Virus record (IMG/VR): IMGVR_UViG_3300043434_000734
Coordinates: 96,001 to 160,000 of that record
Strand: one strand, 5' to 3'
From: a virus
Taxonomy: Duplodnaviria > Caudoviricetes
Length of the DNA: 64,000 bases
Shown piece by piece: positions 47,951 to 59,839 of the stretch; position 1 is the stretch's first letter; the number at the start of each line of letters is the position of its first letter. The notes beneath the pieces are model-generated. The model made no database searches. It was given only the letters and a program-made list of their open reading frames with translations, and was not told the origin of the DNA. A program made the translations under genes and the position numbers.

Positions 47951-48023
47951 GGGCCTGATGTCAACGGCAGACCATCTGATTTGCAATCAGAATGAATGGG
48001 TTCGATTCCCACAGCGTCCACCA
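47951..48023 (+). tRNA. tRNA-Ala(TGC), bulged acceptor stem, encoded CCA
   Basis: tctga-tttgcaa-tcaga; G3:U70. Confidence 0.8.
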
Positions 48024-48026
48024 AAT

Positions 48027-48099
48027 TGGAATGTAGCTCAATGGTGAGAGCATCCGCCTGATACGCGGAAGGTTATAAGTTCGAGTCTTATCATTCCAA
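48027..48099 (+). tRNA. tRNA-Ile(GAT)
   Basis: tccgc-ctgatac-gcgga; full cloverleaf. Confidence 0.95.
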
Positions 48100-48104
48100 C
48101 ATTG

Positions 48105-48177
48105 GGAACTTTGGTATAGCCGGTGCGTACGTTGGACTGAAAATCCGAAGGAACAAGTTCGATTCTTGTAGGTTCCA
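48105..48177 (+). tRNA. tRNA-Phe(GAA)
   Basis: ttgga-ctgaaaa-tccga. Confidence 0.9.
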
Positions 48178-48240
48178 CAAATAAAGTAAAATTTGAACGA
48201 TAAAGTTAATCACTTTATTAAACAGAAATAACTTTATTAT

Positions 48241-48314
48241 GACCTCTTAGCTCAGTTGGTTAGAGCACCTCACTTTTAATGAGGGAGTCCCGCGTTCGAG
48301 TCGCGGAGGGGTCA
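48241..48314 (+). tRNA. tRNA-Lys(TTT)
   Basis: cctca-cttttaa-tgagg. Confidence 0.95.
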
Positions 48315-48319
48315 CACAC

Positions 48320-48392
48320 ACGGGTATGGTGAAAATGGTTATCATTTTAGTCTCCAAAACTAAAGTTCCTGATTCGAGTTCAGGTATCCGTG
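48320..48392 (+). tRNA. tRNA-Trp(CCA)
   Basis: ttagt-ctccaaa-actaa. Confidence 0.92.
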
Positions 48393-48453
48393 CAAATGTT
48401 CGATTTTTTTAGTCCGTTTCGAACTTTCGTGATATTTATAAATAAAGAACATT

Positions 48454-48993
48454 ATGAAAGAAGAAATATTAAAATTAAGAAATGAAGGTAAAACATTTAA
48501 CCAAATAAAAGAAATAATAAAATGTTCTAAATCTACAATTTCATATTATTGTAGTGAAGGGCAAAAAGAAAAAACAAAAATTAGAACTAAAAAGAGGAGA
48601 GAAAACATTATAATTGATAAATTAGAAAGATTTAAATATAGAAAATCTAAATCGAATAAAGAACGAATTAGAAAATTCAATAAAAGAGATAATCAAATGG
48701 ATGGATTAGTTAACAAAAAAATAGAAATTACATTCACATTTGAAGATGTTATCAAGAAGTTTGGTTATAGTACTGTTTGTTATCTTTCCGGAGAAAAAAT
48801 AAATTTAAATGAAAACACATACCATTTTGACCATATTTTACCATCAAGTAGAGGTGGTGATAACACATTAGAAAATTTAGGTGTTACACACGAAATTGTA
48901 AATAAAATGAAAGGGGACTTAACACCAAAGGAACTTATTCTTTGGTGTGAAAAAATTTTGAAATATAATGGATATGATGTAAATAAAATTTAA
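48454..48993 (+). mobile_element. HNH homing endonuclease with N-terminal HTH
   Basis: CYLSG...HFDHILPSSRGG.NTLENL...VNKMK. Confidence 0.88.
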
Positions 48994-49039
48994 TATTATG
49001 AAAAAAGAATTCGATATGCATTAGTTAAACTAATCGCAT

Positions 49040-49243
49040 ATGACAAACAAAGAGTACAGAGTAAAGAGAATGAAACAATCACACGATTATTGTTTCATAT
49101 GTCAGAAGAGAAATGGAAGTTGGTATTATGATTGCTCCCCAACTTTTGTTCACGGAAGACACGGTAATGGGAAACCGATTGAATCTCATAAAAGAAGAGA
49201 GTATAGAAGTTGGAAGTACAACAGAAAAACTCAATGGAAGTAA
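49040..49243 (+). CDS. Small basic hypothetical protein
   Basis: 67 aa with CxxC. Confidence 0.55.
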   Translation: MTNKEYRVKRMKQSHDYCFICQKRNGSWYYDCSPTFVHGRHGNGKPIESHKRREYRSWKYNRKTQWK

Positions 49244-49272
49244 TGTTTACTATTAACAGTAAACAGTAAACG

Positions 49273-49344
49273 GGTCTCTTGGTGTAACGGATAGCACGAA
49301 ACACTACGGATGTTTTAGTAAGGGTTCAAATCCTTTAGAGACCT
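49273..49344 (+). tRNA. tRNA-Arg(ACG)
   Basis: aaaca-ctacgga-tgttt. Confidence 0.92.
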
Positions 49345-49405
49345 CAATGTTCACAAATTTTTAATGTTCACGTTCCGTGAACAAACAAAAAAAGTGAACA
49401 AAAAA

Positions 49406-49476
49406 GTCAGGTTGGCCGAGCGGCTAGGTGAAGGTCTGCAAAACCTTTAAGATAGGTTCGACTCCTATACTTGACT
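49406..49476 (+). tRNA. tRNA-Cys(GCA)
   Basis: aaggt-ctgcaaa-acctt; U73. Confidence 0.93.
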
Positions 49477-49481
49477 CTTAT

Positions 49482-49553
49482 GGTGTTTGAAGCTTTAAGG
49501 TGAAGCACGAGTTTGTGGAGCTCGGGAAGACGGTTCGATACCGTTCATACACC
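49482..49553 (+). tRNA. tRNA-His(GTG)
   Basis: cgagt-ttgtgga-gctcg; G-1:C73. Confidence 0.92.
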
Positions 49554-49558
49554 CATAT

Positions 49559-49629
49559 TGCGGGGAGGAAGGTTCCCGACCAGTCTCATAAGCTGTGTCT
49601 CCCGAGTTCGATTCTCGGCCCCGCAACCA
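49559..49629 (+). tRNA. Atypical tRNA-Met(CAT): initiator-like acceptor, short D-arm
   Basis: tgcgggg/ccccgca-acca; ctcataa loop. Confidence 0.7.
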
Positions 49630-49680
49630 AAAAGTTTTAAAAATAATTTGAAATAATTTCGGATATTCGTATTTATTTCT

Positions 49681-49688
49681 TACATTTG
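49681..49688 (+). promoter_or_regulatory. Bacteroidota-type -7 element TACATTTG
   Basis: Same tacatttgtaaaacaataa context as 56016. Confidence 0.75.
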
Positions 49689-49709
49689 TAAAACAATAAT
49701 GACAGAAAA

Positions 49710-49838
49710 ATGGCGAAAGCACCGAGAACATCGAAAAGAGTTGGTAAAGTGGCAAGTAAAGCATTAAGAAGTAAAAAAAGTAGCAAGACAACAAAAACTC
49801 TTGCGGGAAGTTCTTTGAGACAACGGAGAAAAAAGTAA
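49710..49838 (+). CDS. 42-aa highly basic peptide (MAKAPRTSKRVGKVASKALRS...)
   Basis: Below the ORF-track cutoff; promoter and A-rich start upstream. Confidence 0.65.
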   Translation: MAKAPRTSKRVGKVASKALRSKKSSKTTKTLAGSSLRQRRKK

Positions 49839-49843
49839 AATAA

Positions 49844-49915
49844 GCCTCTTAAGCATTGCAGGCGATGCGCCAGATTTGTAATCTGGATAACTCGGTTCGA
49901 TTCCGGGCGGAGGCT
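49844..49915 (+). tRNA. tRNA-Thr(TGT)
   Basis: ccaga-tttgtaa-tctgg. Confidence 0.9.
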
Positions 49916-49916
49916 C

Positions 49917-50375
49917 AACAAGTGACGACTGTGGTGTAACCCCACGGTATATAAATCCCAAAGAACTGTCTTGATTCGCGATATCAGAGCAGTGAGGGTA
50001 GAGTTTACTATAAGCGGGGAGTAATTAACCCAATGCGAAAATGTAACCACCAAGTGTAGAGATATATTTGGTTATGATGTACAGAAGGGTACAAAAAACT
50101 TGTTAATTTATTAATTTAGATTCTGATAACTTATAACTAAAGTTTTACTTAAACAAAGGTTATGGAGCAATTTGAGAAATGTTGTTATCACTAAGAATGT
50201 AAATTAATAAAGTTTGATTACGTTAGGTATGTAGTTTAAAAAGAACAATGTCCTAATAGATGAAGGTGTGAGTAATCACCTTACTTAACGTAATTTAAAT
50301 TTAAAACTAACTCAACGAGGACTTTGTTAACCAGAGCAAGACTTGGATGGTGCAACTTAAGGTGAGTTAGAATTT
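49917..50375 (+). ncRNA. Putative ~460-nt structured RNA of unknown class
   Basis: No + strand ORF; helices 50217-27/50284-94, 50263-68/50277-82, 50307-14/50363-70. Confidence 0.5.
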
Positions 50376-50376
50376 T

Positions 50377-50448
50377 GGTCCTGTAGTTAATCGGCTATAA
50401 TATTGCCCTGTCACGGCAAAGTGCCGGGTTCGATTCCCGGTGGGACCG
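50377..50448 (+). tRNA. tRNA-Asp(GTC)
   Basis: ttgcc-ctgtcac-ggcaa. Confidence 0.93.
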
Positions 50449-50672
50449 CAATGAGTAAGAGATACTCAATAGTCTTTAATCCAAGACTCATTTAACAATG
50501 GATGGTGGTTTGTAGTATCAACCTTAACGACTGCATATTGGGAACAAGGATTGTGGACCTACTCTCCCCCAAGTATTAGGTTGACGTTTTAACAGAGGGA
50601 TGCCTCGCAGGTTTTTGAGACAGACAAAAAACCGAAGTAACTACTCATCAGGAATCTCAAGGTGGGGAAAAT

Positions 50673-50760
50673 GGAGAGATGGTAGAGTTGGTCTATTGCA
50701 CCTGACTTGAAATCAGGAGTACTCGTGAGGGTACCGTGGGTTCGAATCCTACTCTCTCCG
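50673..50760 (+). tRNA. tRNA-Ser(TGA)
   Basis: cctga-cttgaaa-tcagg; long variable arm. Confidence 0.95.
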
Positions 50761-50876
50761 CTGTAGAGTTTGCCCGTGGTAACGGTCTGATAAGATACTT
50801 TCAGACTTCTCGCGTCAAAACCCAAAACACTGACCTACTGGTGCTTGGGCTAAATGTAGAAAAAAAACGGGATATT

Positions 50877-50964
50877 GGAGAGATGGCAGAGTTGGTCGAT
50901 TGCGTCAGACTTGAAATCTGAAGAACGGGAAACTGTTCCGTGGGTTCGAATCCTACTCTCTCCG
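50877..50964 (+). tRNA. tRNA-Ser(TGA), second copy
   Basis: tcaga-cttgaaa-tctga; long variable arm. Confidence 0.95.
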
Positions 50965-51063
50965 CGAACCAAAAGTCCAATGGGGAGGATCCACTACACG
51001 ATTAGCAATCGGAAGAGTAGATTAAGACTAAGGTTGCTTGACACTCCGGAAAGACGAGAAAAC

Positions 51064-51202
51064 AATCAAGTAGAGTGGTGGTACACTCACTATGTATGCA
51101 TCGTAAGATGGACGCCTTCTTCCCGCAGAGCACATAGATATGTCGTTTAGTGATATGGAAGAACACGGGAACGATTTGTAGGTTCGAATCCTATCTTGAT
51201 TG
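51064..51202 (+). ncRNA. Oversized tRNA-like RNA 1 (139 nt)
   Basis: Perfect 7-bp acceptor, D-arm and T-arm; 38-nt anticodon loop; 40-nt variable region. Confidence 0.7.
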
Positions 51203-51317
51203 CCTTTCCTTTCAGGGTAACGACCTGATAAATTTTGAGATACTAAAGTTGTAACACCAGGGACTCAACGAAAGAAAGTCGGAAACTAAACTTGACTGAT
51301 GGAAAGACATCAAATTT

Positions 51318-51447
51318 GGGAAGGTAGCAGAAATGGAAGATGCGTTATACGAAAGCTACGTATAAGACGCGATGACGGACACAAAAGTACAATGTGTTGA
51401 ACTAAAGATTACGCATCGTTATGGGTTCGATTCCCACTCCTGTCCCA
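51318..51447 (+). ncRNA. Oversized tRNA-like RNA 2 (130 nt)
   Basis: Bulged acceptor, D-arm, 7-bp anticodon-like stem, 55-nt variable domain, T-arm. Confidence 0.6.
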
Positions 51448-51648
51448 CAGGTCGTCTTTTTATATTGCTCAGTTTGTGGAGTTAACTTTAGAGACGTTAA
51501 ACTTAAAGTAATGAATCCAAGCCCTTTTAAAGTTGTGGTACAACTGGGTCCATTTCCTTACCGAAGGAGGTTTCCGGACCTAAAATAGAAGCCTCAAACG
51601 ACTGAAAAAAGTAGGGACATATGAGACTACCTAATCTCGTCCCGAAAT

Positions 51649-51720
51649 GGCCCTATCGACAAGCGGTTAAGTCACGTCCCTTTCACGGATGAGTCACGGG
51701 TTCGAATCCCGTTGGGGCTA
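51649..51720 (+). tRNA. tRNA-Glu(TTC)
   Basis: cgtcc-ctttcac-ggatg. Confidence 0.95.
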
Positions 51721-51735
51721 CTAAATGGTTTTACT

Positions 51736-51894
51736 ATGAAGAAGATTGTATTTTTATTGTTAGTAATGGTTACAATGAGTAGTTGTTTATATACAACATA
51801 TAGACGACCTTATTATCAACGATATCCGACTTATCAGAAACATTATCAACCAAATAAAAAATATAAACCTTACTTTAGACCAGGTCGTTGGTAA
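51736..51894 (+). CDS. Small Tyr/Arg/Pro-rich lipoprotein
   Basis: MKK-hydrophobic-MSSC lipobox. Confidence 0.75.
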   Translation: MKKIVFLLLVMVTMSSCLYTTYRRPYYQRYPTYQKHYQPNKKYKPYFRPGRW

Positions 51895-51948
51895 AAAATA
51901 TTTACTATTAAATTGAATTTTTATATATTTGTATATACTTATTAAGAA

Positions 51949-52053
51949 ATGAAGAACATAAATAACATATTGTCACTTAGTACTAGACCATTAAATAATG
52001 GTAACGGGTATGGTGTGCAACCCGTGAATTTATGTTCGGATACTCATATTTAG
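51949..52053 (+). CDS. Putative attenuator leader peptide 2 (MKNINNILSLSTRPLNNGNGYGVQPVNLCSDTHI)
   Basis: TATATTTG promoter at 51924; tgttcgg complementary to the terminator 5' arm. Confidence 0.55.
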   Translation: MKNINNILSLSTRPLNNGNGYGVQPVNLCSDTHI

Positions 52054-52075
52054 AAATTTAATTAATTAAAATATA

Positions 52076-52111
52076 GACCCGAACGACTTAAAAAATTGTT
52101 CGGGTTTTTTT
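52076..52111 (+). terminator. Terminator/attenuator before the second tRNA block
   Basis: gacccgaacga...ttgttcgggtt plus T-tract. Confidence 0.88.
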
Positions 52112-52142
52112 ATGTTATTTTTTTTCTTTATATTTGAAATGT

Positions 52143-52155
52143 AGTTCTTTGACAT
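52143..52155 (+). promoter_or_regulatory. boxA-like element AGTTCTTTGACAT
   Basis: Follows TATATTTG (52129-52136); similar copies at 49809, 56042, 59421. Confidence 0.6.
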
Positions 52156-52169
52156 TGTGGAAATGATTT

Positions 52170-52254
52170 GCTCGGGTGGTGTAATGGTAGCCACGAGGGA
52201 CTTAAAATCCCTTGGACAGAAACGTCCGTGCCGGTTCGAGTCCGGCCCCGAGTA
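52170..52254 (+). tRNA. tRNA-Leu(TAA)
   Basis: aggga-cttaaaa-tccct; long variable arm. Confidence 0.95.
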
Positions 52255-52369
52255 CAATGTAATGACTTAGAAATAAGTGACGGAACAGACGCTATGTATG
52301 AAATGGAAACGTTTGAAACATTTTAAAGATGTTGATTCGACACAAACCGTACAGACATTACATTAAATT

Positions 52370-52443
52370 GGTCCAATAGCTCAGCTGGATAGAGCAACTC
52401 TCTTCTAAAGAGTAGGTCTCAGGTTCGAATCCTGATTGGATCA
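52370..52443 (+). tRNA. tRNA-Arg(TCT)
   Basis: actct-cttctaa-agagt. Confidence 0.95.
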
Positions 52444-52588
52444 CGAAGATAATGGTTTTCACCACCTTACGGATGTCGACAATCCACGGTGGAATCTGAA
52501 AACAGCACCCTCTGCCGAGCGCTCGTAAAACTACGATTAAGCAGTTAAGATTGGAACGAGACGGGTATTCCAACATTATCTTTATTTT

Positions 52589-52661
52589 AGAGTAGTTGAC
52601 CAATCGGTAGGTCCCTTGCTTTGGGAGCAAGTGTGTGTAGGTTCGAGTCCTGTCTACTCTA
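52589..52661 (+). tRNA. tRNA-Pro(TGG)
   Basis: cttgc-tttggga-gcaag. Confidence 0.9.
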
Positions 52662-52668
52662 CAAAAAC

Positions 52669-52740
52669 GTTGGTATAGCTTAATGGTGAAGCATTCGGCT
52701 GTTAACCGAAAGACTGTAGGTTCGAGCCCTACTACCAACG
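52669..52740 (+). tRNA. tRNA-Asn(GTT)
   Basis: ttcgg-ctgttaa-ccgaa. Confidence 0.95.
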
Positions 52741-52747
52741 CAAAAAT

Positions 52748-52824
52748 ACCCGTATGGCGGAATTGGCATACGCGTCAGATTTAGGATCTGAATTTTGTAG
52801 GTTCGAGTCCTACTATGGGTACCA
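52748..52824 (+). tRNA. tRNA-Leu(TAG), short variable loop, encoded CCA
   Basis: tcaga-tttagga-tctga. Confidence 0.88.
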
Positions 52825-52870
52825 GGGATTGGTTGACACTAAACAACAAAACCAAAAGGAAGTGTAAAAT

Positions 52871-52954
52871 TGGAGGATGGGTGAGTGGCTAAAACCGGCA
52901 GACTGTAAATCTGCTCTCAGAACGGGTACGGGGGTTCGAATCCCTCTCCTCCAA
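52871..52954 (+). tRNA. tRNA-Tyr(GTA)
   Basis: gcaga-ctgtaaa-tctgc. Confidence 0.95.
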
Positions 52955-52968
52955 CAAAAACAAAAACT

Positions 52969-53616
52969 ATGGCAACATTAGAAACACAGTACAAGAATTA
53001 CTTAAAGTTGAATCCAGATTCAACATTCACATTTGAAGAATGGAAAGAAGATTTCGGTGGTAACGTGCTTAGACAAATGTCCGATATCTTAAAAGAAATC
53101 AAAACTCCTGAATATAAAGAAAGACGTATTAAGGAACACGAAGAACGTCTTAAAAATATTACAATGGATTATCAATTGGGACAATACGTTGGTGAGTACA
53201 TTGTAAGTCACAATCTTCCAACATTATCGACCGATATGATTCACTCTAATCGTGTGATTAAAGTGTCTGACGAAGAACAAACTGAATGTGAAAGATTGGA
53301 TGGTGAATATGTTAAATCATTGGAAGCCAATCAATGGAAAAATGGTGATAGTGAATTATTTGAAGCGTGGAAACAATATCGTAAGGTATTGGAAAAGAAA
53401 TATCTTCCACAAGTTTTAGAGTGTCATCTTAGTTTAATAAGAATTGATGACATAGTAAAATTTAAAGAAGGTTTATCTGATTGTCTTTGGAATTGTGATA
53501 TGTGTTCTTATGACATCAAAGAAGAAAACATCACAATTGAAAATGATTTACTTAACGGATTTACAATTATCAAATTTCAATATGATTCGAGTTGTAATGA
53601 TGAAATGAAAAAATAA
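52969..53616 (+). CDS. Hypothetical protein inside the tRNA array
   Basis: 215-aa ORF with A-rich start. Confidence 0.8.
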   Translation: MATLETQYKNYLKLNPDSTFTFEEWKEDFGGNVLRQMSDILKEIKTPEYKERRIKEHEERLKNITMDYQLGQYVGEYIVSHNLPTLSTDMIHSNRVIKVSDEEQTECERLDGEYVKSLEANQWKNGDSELFEAWKQYRKVLEKKYLPQVLECHLSLIRIDDIVKFKEGLSDCLWNCDMCSYDIKEENITIENDLLNGFTIIKFQYDSSCNDEMKK

Positions 53617-53667
53617 AATATCGTTTAAATATACGATATACGATTTTATCGTCTTAATAAACGATAT

Positions 53668-53741
53668 GGACTTGTAGCTCAGTAGGTTAGAGCAACTGAC
53701 TCATAATCAGTAGGTCCCTGGTTCGAGCCCAGGCTGGTCCA
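53668..53741 (+). tRNA. tRNA(CAT), elongator Met or Ile2 (lysidine)
   Basis: actga-ctcataa-tcagt. Confidence 0.9.
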
Positions 53742-53802
53742 CAAAGAGATTAGGATATTCCTTACCCGTCGCCTCGGGATGACATCGTCAGTCTCTTTAC
53801 AT

Positions 53803-53877
53803 AGAAGATTAGTTCAGTCGGTTCAGAGCATCTGTTTTACACACAGAAAGTCGGGGGTTCGAATCCCTCATCTTCTA
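53803..53877 (+). tRNA. tRNA-Val(TAC)
   Basis: tctgt-tttacac-acaga. Confidence 0.93.
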
Positions 53878-53946
53878 CAAAAAAATTGGGATTGGGTTAA
53901 TACTGATATGGAGGCAATTCCTGGTATTATCGCCGCCCAATTAAAT

Positions 53947-54022
53947 GCGAAAGTAGCTCAGTCGGTAGAGCACAACCTTGCCAAGGTTGGGGTCGCGAGT
54001 TCGAATCTCGTCTTTCGCTCCA
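53947..54022 (+). tRNA. tRNA-Gly(GCC), encoded CCA
   Basis: caacc-ttgccaa-ggttg. Confidence 0.96.
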
Positions 54023-54025
54023 TAT

Positions 54026-54098
54026 GCGAATATAGCTCAATTGGTAGAGCACTAGTTTTCCAAACTGGGGGTTGCAGGATCGTTCCCTGTTATTCGCT
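54026..54098 (+). tRNA. tRNA-Gly(TCC), atypical T-loop ATCGTTC
   Basis: ctagt-tttccaa-actgg. Confidence 0.88.
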
Positions 54099-54192
54099 CA
54101 ACTCAAGTACCCATACCGCTAACGATGGGCTAAGTAAGATACAAATTCGTACCACATTATTGTGGAGGCGGGAAGTAGAATGCTTGAGACAC

Positions 54193-54263
54193 TGTCCTTT
54201 GGTGTAACGGTAACACAATCGTTTTTGGTGCGATTATTTTAGGTTCGAATCCTAAAGGGACAA
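54193..54263 (+). tRNA. tRNA-Gln(TTG)
   Basis: atcgt-ttttggt-gcgat. Confidence 0.88.
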
Positions 54264-54278
54264 CTTAAATTTTTAAGT

Positions 54279-54509
54279 ATGAGTATTTTTGCAATTTACT
54301 ACGTAATATGTATTGCGTATTGTTTCTATCAATTAAATAAAAAATATAGAAACAGAGGTGTTGATTATGGAACATCACCAGAGTTAGATTCCATAATGGT
54401 TTTGGTTATGGCTTGGATTTTAGTGCCAATTGATGTGTCGATAACTTGGATACGAATGGTGAAAGAAGCAGAGGAGTCTAAAAGAAGACAAGAGAAACAA
54501 GTACTTTAA
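54279..54509 (+). CDS. Small 2-TM membrane protein
   Basis: Two hydrophobic segments. Confidence 0.7.
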   Translation: MSIFAIYYVICIAYCFYQLNKKYRNRGVDYGTSPELDSIMVLVMAWILVPIDVSITWIRMVKEAEESKRRQEKQVL

Positions 54510-54570
54510 CTAGTGGGCCACGGTGGTAGGCCAAAAGAAAAATAGATGTTTTTCATCCACCAAATTTTAT

Positions 54571-54656
54571 AGAGAGTTACCCAAGTTGGTGAAGGGGCCT
54601 GTTTGCTAAACAGGTAGGATGTTAAAGTCGCAAGGGTTCGAGCCCCTTACTCTCTA
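54571..54656 (+). tRNA. tRNA-Ser(GCT)
   Basis: cctgt-ttgctaa-acagg; variable arm. Confidence 0.9.
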
Positions 54657-54661
54657 CACAT

Positions 54662-54811
54662 TGTAGTGTGACGAAACTTGGCAGACGTGCCCTCCTGTCT
54701 CGGGGGTGTGGAACAAGAAATAGGTTAATAATATGGGGTAGACCACCAGCCGGCCGGCGAAGTGTTATTAACTGAATCTCCATTTAAGTGGTTCGAATCC
54801 CTTCACTACAG
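54662..54811 (+). tRNA. Oversized tRNA with Asp(GTC) anticodon and 79-nt variable arm (150 nt)
   Basis: tgtagtg/cactaca acceptor; ccctc-ctgtctc-ggggg; 10-bp helix in the insert. Confidence 0.65.
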
Positions 54812-54848
54812 CACTAATAAACCAATAATTATAATAAATGAAAAAGTA

Positions 54849-55310
54849 ATGAAAAAATTCAGAACTCTCCACGGAACCCCAATTCCAGATGTAATCAATT
54901 ACATTAGAGAGTATATTTCAACAAGAGAGGATGTGGAAATTCTCATAGGATCAGATTCACAATCATATTCAAACAGGAAAACTGTTTATGGTGTTGTTAT
55001 TGCCCTTTATACAAAAGGTAAGGGTGCACACGTATTATGTACACGTGAGACATTACCTATGGAATATAATGTGGCATCGAGATTACTTGGTGAAGTTTGG
55101 AAATCAATTGAGATTGCTGAATTTTTAAAAGAGAATGGTTTACCAAAACCTACTTGGATTGATATTGACTTAAATCCCGACCCAAAATACAAATCAAATA
55201 ATGTTCTTAGACAAGCAGTTGGTATGGTTGAGGGTATGGGTTATAAAGTAAGGTACAAACACGTAGGTGCGTTAATGACATATGCCGCAAATCATTTAGT
55301 TAGGTTATAA
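54849..55310 (+). CDS. RNase H-like YkuK-family protein
   Basis: ILIGSDSQ, RLLGEVWKSIEIA, IDIDLN, AANHL. Confidence 0.8.
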   Translation: MKKFRTLHGTPIPDVINYIREYISTREDVEILIGSDSQSYSNRKTVYGVVIALYTKGKGAHVLCTRETLPMEYNVASRLLGEVWKSIEIAEFLKENGLPKPTWIDIDLNPDPKYKSNNVLRQAVGMVEGMGYKVRYKHVGALMTYAANHLVRL

Positions 55311-56063: not shown

Positions 56064-56870
56064 GGCCGCCTATGGTCGATTAAAATAAACCACGAAAGTG
56101 GGATAAAGTGACGAGTCCTTGGTTGGGACAAGTTGCGGTTTCAGTAATGGAACTTGAGTAGGCAAGTGGAGTATCGTTGAACCTTAAGTACTGAGGGTAA
56201 CACTTTAGGGAAAGTGGTTTGATGACTGAGCAATCCGAGTTGTTTGGTTGAGGTGGGAACACCAATAAGAATAATCCATAGAGTTATTGTGAGAAATATG
56301 GTTATCCGACTATATGATTACGTGATTCAATATGATGGGAATCTTAAAACCGAAAGGTATGGTGAAGTACGAGTGGTGTCGTTATCATCCTTTATTAAAC
56401 TCTACCAAGGGTTTAGTTTTGAAGGGGTCCAAAAATATGGTAGCAGGGATGTTACAGAGAGTAGTTTAGTATCGAGTCGCTCAAAAGGTGGCTTGGCTAG
56501 GTGACGAACCACTACTTTCCAAATTCGGATAACTAAATTTTGTTAATTTTGGTTTAACAACTTAAAATCATACAAGAAAAAGTGTTCGTCAGTCGTTGTA
56601 GACAGGTGGCTACATAGTCGTGAGGGGTTCACGGCCACAAAGGGTCTCAAGCCCAATGTGATTTTTAAAAAAGTTCTCTAAACCCGCAAGGTTGAATCAG
56701 GGAGGCATCTTTGATGAGTAATGAGTATTAAAAGAGTATATAACGACTCAAGGATTGGTTAATCTAATTGACCGCCGCTGATTGGTACTACTCAAAAGGT
56801 AGTGGATATGGGAAGAATCAAATAATGTCCCTAAGTCAATCAAAAAATGGTGTAATCTCAGCCCTTTCTT
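56064..56870 (+). ncRNA. ~800-nt structured RNA, GOLLD-like candidate
   Basis: GC-enriched, no credible ORF, many hairpins, long-range 5'/3' pairing, next to tRNAs. Confidence 0.65.
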
Positions 56871-59435: not shown

Positions 59436-59836
59436 GGGGATGTCTGGTATTGATTTCAGGTATCAGGGATAAATGGCACGTAGTCAGAATTCATCTATGA
59501 CTTAAATCCACGGTGAAACATTTTAGACGGCAACGTTTACAACAATATGGAAATTGCAGGTTTACTTGCAACTTCTAAAGTAGCGGCCTAACCAAGTTAG
59601 CACTACACTCGGGTCGATGTACATATAACCTAGGAACAGAAGTACTTAAGGTGTGATACCACCTAAGAGTGTCAAAGGTCTCGTTCAGAGGGCTACCTTA
59701 AAGTGAACTCGACACAGTTATAGGGAACGATGTTAAAATAGGAACCTTTTATTTGTCTGTTGTGAACTAACAGAATAAACGTGTAGTCATTTATTGTTGA
59801 ACAGGAAAGACACGGGTTCGACTCCCGTCATCTCCA
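59436..59836 (+). ncRNA. ssrA: tmRNA; tag GNVYNNMEIAGLLATSKVAA* (59529-59591)
   Basis: ggggatg/catctcc-a acceptor with G3:U70, T-arm acggg-ttcgact-cccgt, tag ending VAA. Confidence 0.93.
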
Positions 59837-59839
59837 CAT

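What the first reader, a model, noticed from the sequence alone, without database searches (positions are those of the whole stretch)
54662..54811. 150-nt tRNA: Leu-like D-arm, Asp anticodon with U37, 79-nt variable arm
Perfect acceptor and anticodon stems with loop CUGUCUC (GUC anticodon, pyrimidine at 37). The D-arm acg-aaacttggcaga-cgt is class-II-like and the T-stem is bulged. The variable arm holds a 10-bp helix (ggttaataat/gttattaact) capped by GC-rich hairpins. A normal Asp tRNA exists at 50377, so this copy is free to do something else. Inference: a nuclease decoy, a mischarged recoding tRNA, or a carrier of an appended RNA domain.
Basis: partly seen in the sequence, partly recalled or inferred. 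Interest (0 to 1): 0.8.

Follow-up and report, generated by a model that had tools for sequence, protein, structure and literature searches.

The report
Phage copy of giant-armed tRNA-like RNA
The 150-base stretch is a real, expressed gene for a tRNA-shaped RNA with a 79-base extra arm; it belongs to a large, apparently uncatalogued family shared by Bacteroidota bacteria and their big phages, carries aspartate-tRNA marks but looks unfit for routine decoding, and its job is still unknown.

Summary
Confirmed. ARAGORN and Rfam 15 miss it.

It is neither chance nor a pseudogene.
- I found 89 distinct full-length phage homologues and over 110 copies in Bacteroidota genomes (Chitinophagaceae, Saprospiraceae, Spirosomataceae).
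- On 110 sequences, 98.2% of cells pair against 79% in shuffles, and 28 of 35 pairs show compensatory changes.
- Freshwater metatranscriptome contigs cover phage-type relatives (85% or more alike), arm included, at depths of hundreds to thousands. No high-depth spliced form appeared.

G34-U35-C36, G73, U1-A72 and G2-C71 are invariant. Position 37 is always a pyrimidine, and U33 is replaced in 12-25% of copies. A canonical tRNA-Asp coexists in 20 of 20 carrier genomes.

Phage copies have a self-complementary tip (81 of 88 copies, 15 variants), which points to tip-to-tip homodimers.

Best reading: a processed, probably AspRS-recognised tRNA-like RNA acting beside normal decoding, with the arm as a docking module. 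The function is unproven. An asparagine/GatCAB link was tested and is not specific.

This scan had already found the same family on other DNA several times. I found no published description.

The parts
54662..54811 (+). Whole tRNA-like RNA gene, from position 1 to discriminator G73 (150 nt). CCA is not encoded; C follows G73, as in the neighbouring tRNA genes.
   Evidence: Model R1 gives 141.6 bits over its full length. Homologues are aligned.
54662..54668 (+). Acceptor stem, 5' strand (UGUAGUG); pairs with 54804-54810.
   Evidence: All 7 pairs are Watson-Crick. Across 110 sequences, 5 of 7 pairs show compensatory changes; U1-A72 and G2-C71 are invariant.
54669..54689 (+). U8, G9, a 3-bp D stem (ACG/CGU), a 12-nt class-II-type D loop with A14, A15, G18 and G19, then G26.
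   Evidence: U8, A14, A15 and the GG are invariant. The D stem covaries: A-U, G-C and U-A at pair 10-25, U-A and C-G at pair 11-24. Many phage relatives insert a 10-25-nt hairpin here.
54690..54706 (+). Anticodon-like arm: 5-bp stem and 7-nt loop CUGUCUC (GUC at 54697-54699, U37 at 54700, C38 at 54701).
   Evidence: All 5 stem pairs covary. GUC occurs in 197 of 197 parsed copies. Position 37 is U in 190 and C in 7. Position 33 is U in 162, C in 30 and A in 5.
54707..54785 (+). 79-nt variable arm. From base to tip: base helix GUGG/CCAU (54708-11 / 54780-83); helix AGA/UCU (54716-18 / 54777-79); a conserved internal loop; a 10-bp helix (54723-32 / 54764-73); and an apical junction.
   Evidence: Helices 4-6 show compensatory changes in 13 of 15 pairs. 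RNA contigs run straight through the arm.
54735..54747 (+). Near-invariant motif GGGGU(A/U)GACCACC in the apical junction.
   Evidence: GG, U and GACCAC are invariant in 103 diverse phage and bacterial sequences. Its pairing is untested because it does not vary. It is absent from the short 109-142-nt paralogues.
54749..54758 (+). Self-complementary tip GCCGGCCGGC, a 10-nt perfect palindrome.
   Evidence: A perfect palindrome of 8 nt or more sits here in 81 of 88 distinct phage copies, against 6% of shuffles. There are 15 different sequences, and the central tetramer is always self-complementary. The hairpin scores -4.0 kcal/mol and the intermolecular duplex -26.9 kcal/mol.
54786..54803 (+). 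T arm: AAG(U)GG, loop UUCGAAU, CCCUU, with one bulged U in the 5' strand.
   Evidence: GGUUCGA is invariant and the stem covaries. A bulged T stem occurs in 37 of 89 phage copies and 11 of 110 bacterial copies.
54804..54811 (+). Acceptor stem 3' strand (CACUACA) plus discriminator G73.
   Evidence: C71, A72 and G73 are invariant.
54571..54657 (+). tRNA-Ser(GCU), 4 nt upstream on the same strand; the element ends this tRNA array.
   Evidence: In 57 of 89 phage loci a same-strand tRNA lies within 300 nt upstream, and 44 of these are tRNA-Ser. No tRNA follows in 71 of 89 loci.

Best explanation
This is the phage-borne copy of an uncatalogued family of class-II-shaped, aspartate-type tRNA-like RNAs. 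The family lives in Chitinophagales, Cytophagales and Saprospirales-type Bacteroidota and in their large freshwater phages.

Shown:
- It is a conserved structured RNA with covariation in every helix, the giant arm included.
- It sits at the 3' end of the phage tRNA array.
- Phage-type relatives are abundant in metatranscriptomes, with the arm retained.
- It is supernumerary to a canonical tRNA-Asp.
- The phage copies form their own clade and carry a self-complementary tip.

Inferred:
- It is co-transcribed with the array and released by RNase P and the tRNA 3'-end and CCA machinery. It has the same N73-C74 gene end as its neighbours.
- It folds into an L shape from which a roughly 20-bp arm projects.
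- Host AspRS recognises it, and probably aspartylates it, through G34-U35-C36, C38, G73 and G2-C71.
- It does not serve routine decoding. Position 37 is always a pyrimidine, U33 is dispensable, and many phage copies have a bulged T stem.
- The arm, with its conserved internal loop and GGGGUWGACCACC motif, is a docking handle for a still unknown partner.
- Phage copies pair tip to tip as homodimers.
- The phage carries it, as it carries tRNAs and tmRNA, to supply or take over a host translation-linked or amino-acid-linked function during infection.
For: Family and structure:
- I found 89 distinct full-length phage homologues. The acceptor is fully Watson-Crick in 68 and has one G-U pair in 19.
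- More than 110 bacterial copies exist.
- RNAalifold finds compensatory changes in 27 of 36 pairs.
- On the model alignment of 110 sequences, 98.2% of cells pair against 79.0% in shuffles and 44-57% with slid partners. 28 of 35 pairs show double changes, and 0 of 500 shuffles reach any measure.

Expression:
- Metatranscriptome contigs at least 85% alike reach word depths of 563, 3398 and 11768 over 54674-54809. The adjacent tRNA-Ser reaches at most 46 and the flanking genes at most 15.
- Contigs span 54688-54800 and 54715-54802 without a joint.
- One contig at depth 858 carries the compensated tip variant GCAUGCAUGC, and other contig ends carry the GCUUGCAAGC and AAGCCGGCCGGC tips. These are phage-type RNAs.

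Identity marks:
- GUC, G73, U1-A72 and G2-C71 are invariant, and C38 is present in 196 of 197 copies.
- These match six of the seven elements that I recall, from established knowledge, as the E. coli tRNA-Asp identity set.

Supernumerary status:
- A canonical class I tRNA-Asp is present in 20 of 20 carrier genomes, in the window, and in 2 of 3 related phage records.

Non-decoder marks:
- Position 37 is U in 190 copies and C in 7, never a purine.
- Position 33 is not U in 25% of phage copies and 12% of bacterial copies.
- The T stem is bulged in 37 of 89 phage copies.

Dimer tip.

Phage clade:
- The window copy lies in a clade of 38 phage rows plus one MAG contig, with 98% SH-aLRT support. The clade is nested among bacterial copies.
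- There is one copy per phage record, and no phage-encoded class IIb synthetase.
Against: - No charging, end-mapping or ribosome data exist. All mechanism steps beyond structure, expression and distribution are inference.
- G10, an Asp determinant, is A in the window copy and varies across the family.
- From established structural knowledge, class II AspRS approaches tRNA from the variable-loop side, so a 79-nt arm could clash with it.
- G73, G2-C71 and a long arm also fit SerRS.
- An invariant anticodon, a 7-nt loop, a perfect elbow and residence in tRNA arrays are equally what a true decoder would show.
- An earlier check in this scan reported that short family members are annotated as tRNA-Asp by NCBI, and that the flat claim 'not a decoder' partly fell. 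I could not verify that annotation here.
- One bacterial genome has two tandem short copies with UUC instead of GUC. This is hard to reconcile with AspRS recognition in that lineage.
- The depth figures come from assembled contigs that pool relatives, not from raw reads of this phage.
Confidence: 0.45

Rival explanations
1. It is a genuine decoding tRNA-Asp isoacceptor of unusual class II shape. It is charged by AspRS, delivered by EF-Tu and reads GAC and GAU on the ribosome, with the long arm pointing into solvent as it does for tRNA-Ser, tRNA-Leu and tRNA-Sec. The phage carries it as part of its replacement tRNA pool.
For: - The anticodon GUC is invariant, with a 5-bp stem and 7-nt loop. All universal elbow nucleotides and a perfect acceptor are present.
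- It is located inside tRNA arrays.
- Class II tRNAs are its nearest model matches, at 45-57 bits.
Against: - Position 37 is a pyrimidine in 197 of 197 copies, and U33 is lost in 35 of 197.
- The T stem is bulged in 42% of phage copies.
- It is always redundant with a canonical tRNA-Asp.
- The conserved internal loop and 13-nt motif in the arm have no role in decoding.
- The Rfam tRNA model finds neither the long nor the short forms, even at E = 0.01.
Confidence: 0.2
2. It is a serine-accepting missense or regulatory tRNA, a 7/5 analogue of the allo-tRNAs. SerRS would recognise it through the long arm, G73 and G2-C71, so it would place Ser at Asp codons or act as a regulator.
For: - It has a class II body with G73 and G2-C71.
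- It usually sits directly after tRNA-Ser in phage arrays (44 of 57 nearby upstream tRNAs).
- In the published allo-tRNAs, GUC is one of the three predominant anticodons, and those RNAs accept serine in E. coli (PMC5389517).
- A UUC variant exists.
Against: - The acceptor/T configuration is 7/5, not 8/4 or 9/3.
- If the synthetase ignored the anticodon, anticodons should drift as they do in allo-tRNAs (35 codons). Here GUC is fixed in 197 of 197 copies, with a single UUC lineage.
- G1-C72 is replaced by an invariant U1-A72. C11-G24 is present in only 18 of 110 copies.
- Proteome-wide Asp-to-Ser change would be harmful for a highly expressed RNA.
Confidence: 0.1
3. It is a decoy or sponge that protects the phage from a host tRNA-targeting defence, such as an anticodon nuclease or another tRNase, or that titrates a tRNA-binding host factor.
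For: - Phage tRNAs with altered anticodon loops are known to counter tRNA-cleaving defences (PMC10264068, PMC11464382, PMC11555353, listed).
- Phage copies show more variation at positions 32 and 33, bulged T stems and a phage-specific tip.
Against: - The hosts encode the same RNA as a syntenic chromosomal gene. It lies beside an Lrp/AsnC-family regulator in 75 of 113 loci.
- The unusual loop (U37) is shared by host and phage, so it is not a phage evasion change.
- A decoy does not need a conserved 79-nt arm.
Confidence: 0.1
4. It is a scaffold for tRNA-dependent asparagine synthesis. AspRS would charge it, and GatCAB, which needs U1-A72, would amidate the aspartate away from the ribosome.
For: - U1-A72 is invariant, and it is the published GatCAB determinant (PMC1635274, PMC2811023).
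- The neighbouring regulator belongs to the Lrp/AsnC family.
- Five of five carrier isolates have GatB together with AsnRS and GlnRS.
Against: - GatB is present in 126 of 151 sampled Bacteroidota, but the RNA in only 16. All 16 carriers have GatB, and so do 110 of the 135 non-carriers, so there is no specific link.
- 'AsnC' is only a family name.
- An earlier check in this scan priced this story at 4%: a carrier genome has three asnB genes, and the GatCAB puzzle has a published answer.
Confidence: 0.03
5. It is an intron-containing or degenerate tRNA gene: the 79 nt would be spliced out, or the gene is a dead relic.
For: Relaxed ARAGORN proposes a tRNA-Arg with a 57-nt intron.
Against: - RNA contigs at high depth retain the arm. 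Only one low-depth joint (5.9) skips part of it, and it looks like a natural shorter variant.
- The arm covaries and carries invariant motifs.
- The insertion is at the variable-arm position, not at 37/38.
- About 200 distinct copies keep every helix.
Confidence: 0.02

Closest known systems
Class II tRNAs (bacterial tRNA-Ser, tRNA-Leu, tRNA-Tyr; Rfam RF00005)
   Same: It has a 7/5 acceptor/T branch, a 3-bp D stem with a long D loop, U8, A14, G18-G19, a GUUCGAAUC T loop, and a helical variable arm starting one nucleotide after the anticodon stem. These tRNAs are the next-best matches of the family model, at 30-57 bits.
   Different: The arm is 37 to over 140 nt (79 nt here) instead of 13-21 nt, with a conserved internal loop and a 13-nt motif. 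The anticodon is GUC (Asp). Position 37 is a pyrimidine and U33 is not conserved. U1-A72 is invariant. The RF00005 model does not detect it.
Canonical tRNA-Asp(GUC)
   Same: It shares G34-U35-C36, C38, G73 and G2-C71.
   Different: tRNA-Asp is class I, with a 4-5-nt variable loop, G1-C72, A37 and G10. A canonical copy coexists in every carrier checked.
Allo-tRNAs (Mukai et al. 2017, PMC5389517)
   Same: Both are tRNA-Sec/Ser-like bodies with long variable arms and non-serine anticodons, among which GUC is predominant. Both occur in bacteria and phages and are proposed to be missense or regulatory RNAs.
   Different: Allo-tRNAs are defined by 8/4 or 9/3 acceptor/T branches and ordinary-length arms, have diverse anticodons, and occur in other phyla. 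This family is 7/5, has a nearly fixed GUC and a giant conserved arm, and is restricted to Bacteroidota and their phages.
tRNA-like non-decoding RNAs (tmRNA tRNA-like domain, bacterial Y RNA YrlA, viral 3' tRNA-like structures)
   Same: These are tRNA mimics that use tRNA enzymes while doing another job. tmRNA is likewise carried by this phage (59436-59839).
   Different: There is no G3-U70 and no tag reading frame (tmRNA). The ends lie in the acceptor stem rather than in a Ro-binding stem (YrlA). It is a free-standing gene in a tRNA array rather than a genome 3' end. There were no Rfam matches.
RNAs that self-associate through self-complementary loops (HIV-1 DIS; phi29 pRNA; multimeric GOLLD and ROOL)
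   Same: The phage copies carry a tip that varies in sequence but always stays self-complementary. A GOLLD RNA lies 1.6 kb downstream.
   Different: Here the palindrome spans a short stem plus a 4-nt centre, which suggests an extended duplex rather than a kissing loop. Dimerisation is inferred, not shown.

Membership tests
   The window copy scores 141.6 bits over model positions 1-151. The window's tRNA-Tyr, tRNA-Leu and tRNA-Ser score 30-35 bits.
   All are present in the window copy and invariant or nearly invariant in 103-110 sequences.
Canonical decoding tRNA (RF00005) | Reaches the Rfam tRNA gathering score, or is called by ARAGORN at default settings | tested here: not met
   There is no RF00005 match even at E up to 10, and ARAGORN at default settings does not call it.
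Canonical decoding tRNA (RF00005) | U33 and a purine at position 37 in the anticodon loop | tested here: not met
   The window copy has U33 but U37. Across the family, position 37 is a pyrimidine in 197 of 197 copies, and position 33 is C or A in 35 of 197.
Canonical decoding tRNA (RF00005) | Acceptor, D, anticodon and T helices with universal tertiary nucleotides | tested here: met
tRNA-Asp identity set (E. coli: G34, U35, C36, C38, G73, G2-C71, G10; from established knowledge) | Six anticodon and acceptor determinants | tested here: met
   They are invariant or present in 196 of 197 copies.
tRNA-Asp identity set (E. coli: G34, U35, C36, C38, G73, G2-C71, G10; from established knowledge) | G10 | tested here: not met
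   The window copy has A10-U25. In the family the pair is A-U in 63, G-C in 21, U-A in 15 and G-U in 3.
tRNA-Asp identity set (E. coli: G34, U35, C36, C38, G73, G2-C71, G10; from established knowledge) | Actual aspartylation by AspRS | not testable with these tools
   This needs charging assays.
Allo-tRNA (PMC5389517) | 8/4 or 9/3 acceptor/T-stem configuration | tested here: not met
   It has a 7-bp acceptor and a 5-bp T stem, sometimes with one bulge.
Allo-tRNA (PMC5389517) | Long variable arm, G73, non-serine anticodon | tested here: met
tRNA-Ser (SerRS identity, E. coli; from established knowledge) | G1-C72, G2-C71, C11-G24, G73, long arm | tested here: inconclusive
   G73, G2-C71 and the arm are present. 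The 1-72 pair is an invariant U-A. C11-G24 is present in the window copy but in only 18 of 110 family members.
Intron-containing tRNA | Insert removed from the mature RNA | tested here: not met
   High-depth RNA contigs run through the arm. The only joint has depth 5.9.
tmRNA / Y RNA (YrlA) | Match to the Rfam models; G3-U70 and a tag ORF, or a Ro-binding stem formed by the ends | tested here: not met
   There is no match at E up to 10. U3-A70 is present, there is no ORF, and the ends lie in the acceptor stem.

The most novel reading that the evidence does not exclude
This would be a new class of off-ribosome, aminoacyl-tRNA-like RNA. Its giant arm would dock an unknown partner in an amino-acid-linked process of Bacteroidota. 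Large phages would have copied it and re-engineered it into a tip-to-tip homodimer to take over or block that process during infection.
Probability: 0.3. Interest if true: 0.85.

Novelty: new variant of a known kind. Interest (0 to 1): 0.68.

Why it matters
tRNA-shaped RNAs with jobs outside decoding are few: tmRNA, Y RNAs, cell-wall tRNAs and viral tRNA-like structures. Each of them revealed a new pathway.

This family is abundant in environmental RNA and is conserved with full covariation. It is present in many cultivable soil and freshwater Bacteroidota and in more than a hundred large-phage contigs. Even so, Rfam 15 and ARAGORN at default settings miss it, and I found no description in the papers searched.

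The family offers three things:
- a tractable question, since cultured carriers exist: what is charged on it, what binds the arm, and does it reach the ribosome;
- a host marker for uncultured jumbo phages;
- a natural example of a tRNA scaffold carrying a large, foldable and possibly dimerising RNA module.

Tried and rejected
- **Detection tools.** ARAGORN at default settings and Rfam (gathering threshold, and E up to 10) gave nothing on the element. Relaxed ARAGORN gave only implausible intron or 81-nt models.
- **Single-sequence folding.** The result is not better than shuffles and is not the cloverleaf.
- **GenBank phages.** megablast and blastn found no relative of the element, only tRNA-Ser and tRNA-Gly hits.
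- **Exact 41-mer in IMG/VR.** No hit. One call had a frame error.
- **Whole genome.** No genome is held for the window.
- **Asparagine/GatCAB scaffold.** GatB, AsnRS and GlnRS coexist in 5 of 5 carriers, but GatB is in 126 of 151 Bacteroidota and the RNA in only 16. The link is not specific, so I rejected it as the leading idea.
- **Sole tRNA-Asp.** Rejected: a canonical tRNA-Asp is present in 20 of 20 carriers.
- **Intron.** Rejected.
- **Target search.** I looked for extra genomic copies or antisense targets of the 13-nt motif. With one mismatch the counts equal the control. The exact hits may be further copies of the RNA itself; I did not inspect them.
- **Protein partner next to the phage gene.** None is obligatory. 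A 76-90-aa ORF lies upstream in 31 of 89 loci, and the RNase H-like gene lies downstream in 27 of 89.
- **Phage-encoded class IIb synthetase.** None in three related records.
- **Literature.** Six searches found no description. The bacterial Schlafen paper gave nothing specific to long-armed tRNAs.
- **RNA runs X15 and X17.** On the flanking genes they give only low-depth contigs, and no run covers the whole stretch.
- **Not used.** I did not run protein structure or complex prediction, because no protein partner is claimed.
Full report
**Observation.**
- A perfect 7-bp acceptor stem and G73.
- U8 and G9, then a 3-bp D stem with a 12-nt class-II-type loop.
- A 5-bp stem closing the loop CUGUCUC (GUC, U37, C38).
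- A 79-nt variable region containing a 10-bp helix.
- A T arm with one bulged U.
- A normal tRNA-Asp at 50377.

Standard tools miss it. ARAGORN at default settings and Rfam 15, even at E = 10, report nothing there. Relaxed ARAGORN proposes only an unconvincing intron model. The single-sequence fold is no better than shuffles (z = -0.19). The sequence alone therefore proves little, and the case rests on comparison.

**Setting.** The window is part of a large tailed phage.
- It encodes a major head protein, a portal and a large terminase.
- It carries 25-26 tRNA genes at 47951-54657, a GOLLD RNA and a tmRNA.
- No GenBank phage is related, but IMG/VR holds relatives on contigs of up to 334 kb.
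- The element lies 4 nt after tRNA-Ser(GCU) and ends the array. An RNase H-like gene (PF04308) follows at 54849.

**Homologues in phages.** The flanking gene led to 43 loci, 23 of them with the element.

After de-duplication there are 89 distinct full-length copies of 142-176 nt. In each one the 3' strand after the T arm finds a complementary 5' strand. That strand is fully Watson-Crick in 68 copies and has one G-U pair in 19. Many copies carry an extra 10-25-nt hairpin inside the D loop.

The element is normally the last gene of a same-strand tRNA array, most often just after tRNA-Ser. There is one copy per phage record.

**Homologues in bacteria.** Nearly all are Bacteroidota: Chitinophagaceae, Saprospiraceae, Spirosomataceae and relatives. 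They include isolates such as Runella limosa, Niastella soli, Arcicella gelida, Arachidicoccus rhizosphaerae and Emticicia.

These are chromosomal genes with conserved synteny.
- A divergent Lrp/AsnC-family regulator lies about 154 nt upstream in 75 of 113 loci.
- trmB lies downstream in 30 loci.

In an even sample of 151 Bacteroidota genomes, a covariance model built here finds the RNA in 16 genomes, at 78-151 bits. The next-best hits are ordinary class II tRNAs at 57 bits or less.

Bacteria often carry tandem long and short paralogues of 109-119 nt. Rfam does not recognise the three shorter forms tested (110-142 nt) either.

**Structure.** RNAalifold on the phage set finds compensatory changes in 27 of 36 pairs.

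On the model alignment of 110 phage and bacterial sequences:
- 98.2% of cells form standard pairs, against 79.0% in shuffles and 44-57% when partners are slid.
- 28 of 35 pairs have double changes.
- No shuffle out of 500 reaches any of the observed measures.
- Every helix covaries, including the three helices of the arm.

The alignment was fitted to the model, which favours the structure. However, the independent MAFFT/RNAalifold result agrees with it.

The following positions are invariant in both realms:
- U1, G2, U8, A14, A15 and G18-G19.
- G34-U35-C36.
- Several adenines of the arm's internal loop.
- GG-U-GACCAC in the apical motif.
- GGUUCGA in the T loop.
- C71-A72-G73.

**Expression.** Logan contigs from four metatranscriptomes were laid on 54300-55300 at 85% identity or more.
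- Three runs from different studies give summed word depths of 563, 3398 and 11768 on the element.
- The adjacent tRNA-Ser reaches at most 46, and the protein genes at most 15.
- Contigs run uninterrupted through the arm (54688-54800, 54715-54802).
- The only joint that skips part of the arm has depth 5.9.
- One contig at depth 858 carries four changes that convert the tip to another perfect palindrome. Other contig ends carry further phage-type tips.

So phage-type RNAs, not only host ones, are abundant, and they keep the arm. There are caveats: contigs pool relatives, they cannot define RNA ends, and DNA carry-over cannot be excluded formally. The contrast of more than 100-fold with the flanks argues against carry-over.

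**What the loop says.**
- GUC is present in all 197 parsed copies, and C38 in 196.
- Position 37 is U (190) or C (7), never a purine.
- Position 33 is U in 75% of phage copies and 88% of bacterial copies, and otherwise C or A.
- One sampled genome has two tandem short copies with UUC.
- A canonical class I tRNA-Asp is present in all 20 carrier genomes checked, in the window, and in two of three related phage records.

The RNA is therefore supernumerary. Together with G73 and G2-C71, its loop matches the AspRS identity set as established for E. coli, except for G10. A universal pyrimidine-37 and a dispensable U33 are features that decoding tRNAs almost never show. That is why I favour recognition by AspRS without routine decoding.

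I hold this only moderately, for four reasons:
- Nothing here measures charging.
- Class II AspRS approaches tRNA from the variable-loop side, where the arm sits.
- SerRS shares some of the same marks.
- An earlier check in this scan found that the flat claim 'not a decoder' partly fell.

**Phage-specific traits.** The window copy lies in a well-supported clade (98% SH-aLRT) of 38 phage rows plus one short MAG contig. This clade is nested among Cytophagales and Saprospiraceae copies, and the nearest isolate is Arcicella. The short alignment limits resolution, and the root is arbitrary.

After the GACCAC motif, phage copies carry a tip that is a perfect palindrome of 8 nt or more in 81 of 88 distinct sequences, and of 10 nt or more in 74. 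The corresponding figures in shuffles are 6% and 1.3%. There are 15 different sequences, and the central four bases are always self-complementary: UGCA, GGCC, CCGG or AGCU.

A hairpin needs only its stem to be complementary. A self-complementary centre is what intermolecular pairing predicts. For the window's tip, the hairpin is worth -4.0 kcal/mol and the duplex of two tips -26.9 kcal/mol.

Bacterial copies mostly lack this tip, and the two clear exceptions are phage-like contigs. Some phage D-loop inserts are palindromes too (8 of 34). Bulged T stems are also enriched in phages (37 of 89, against 11 of 110).

**Ideas tested and dropped.** U1-A72 is the published GatCAB determinant (PMC1635274, PMC2811023), and five of five carrier isolates have GatB along with AsnRS and GlnRS. 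However, GatB occurs in 126 of 151 sampled Bacteroidota, including 110 of 135 non-carriers. There is no specific association, which agrees with an earlier negative check.

The intron, pseudogene and sole-tRNA-Asp readings are excluded. No obligatory protein neighbour exists in phages, and no phage-encoded class IIb synthetase was found in three related records.

**Comparison with known things.** The body is that of a class II tRNA. The nearest published relatives in concept are the allo-tRNAs (PMC5389517). These also have long arms, and GUC is among their predominant anticodons. They are defined, however, by 8/4 or 9/3 branches, have diverse anticodons, and occur in other phyla.

I found no description of a Bacteroidota or phage tRNA-like RNA with an arm of this size. 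The library searched is incomplete.

The same family has already been noted and followed up several times in this scan on other DNA. I reached the bacterial homologues, the AsnC synteny and the palindromic tip independently before reading those notes. The notes made me lower the weight of the asparagine idea and of a categorical 'non-decoder' claim.

**Verdict.** The element is a real, expressed, strongly constrained RNA gene and a member of a large family that is not in Rfam 15. Its function is open. The best-supported mechanism is an AspRS-recognised tRNA-like RNA acting beside decoding, with the arm as a docking or dimerising module.

Noticed in passing
window 47951-48020 (+): This is a low-scoring tRNA (Rfam 32 bits) that ARAGORN does not call. 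It has anticodon UGC (Ala) and an encoded CCA. It would complete the array's coverage of all 20 amino acids.
   Followed up: partly
window 56457-56864 (+) and 59436-59839 (+): A GOLLD RNA (314 bits) and a phage tmRNA (tag GNVYNNMEIAGLLATSKVAA) lie within 5 kb downstream of the element, on the same strand.
   Followed up: no
window 54849-55310 (+): An RNase H-like (PF04308, YkuK-type) gene lies immediately downstream of the element. The same gene follows the element in 27 of 89 phage loci.
   Followed up: partly
window 48454-48993 (+): An HNH endonuclease with an N-terminal HTH is inserted between tRNA genes of the array.
   Followed up: no
L288:170-279 and L288:392-500 (genome G139): Two tandem 109-110-nt short family members have a UUC (Glu-type) loop, CUUUCUC, instead of GUC. 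This is the only departure from GUC that I saw.
   Followed up: partly
L220:502-1048, L229:4693-4999, L236:5482-5787, L184:4072-4435: Bacterial genomes often hold tandem arrays of long (150-200 nt) and short (112-119 nt) paralogues. The short ones lack the GGGGUWGACCACC motif but keep the arm's internal loop.
   Followed up: partly
phage loci such as L013:2803-2972, L028:2653-2812, L106:7868-8025, L154:7306-7467: The extra hairpin inserted in the D loop of many phage copies is itself a perfect palindrome of 8-20 nt in 8 of 34 cases. A second self-pairing site is possible.
   Followed up: partly
window about 54672-54673 and about 54802: In RNA contigs from different studies, sequencing adapters abut the element at about position 11-12 (two studies) and about position 141 (one study). 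These may be short abundant fragments or reverse-transcription stops near modified bases.
   Followed up: no
bacterial loci (for example L263:2479-3006): A divergent Lrp/AsnC-family regulator lies about 154 nt upstream of the RNA gene in 75 of 113 bacterial loci, and trmB lies about 1.2 kb downstream in 30. No such neighbour exists in phages.
   Followed up: partly
L164 (3.6-kb contig in a Bacteroidetes MAG) and L198: These contigs, binned as bacterial, carry phage-type copies with a palindromic tip and a D-loop insert. They are probably misbinned phage fragments or prophages.
   Followed up: no
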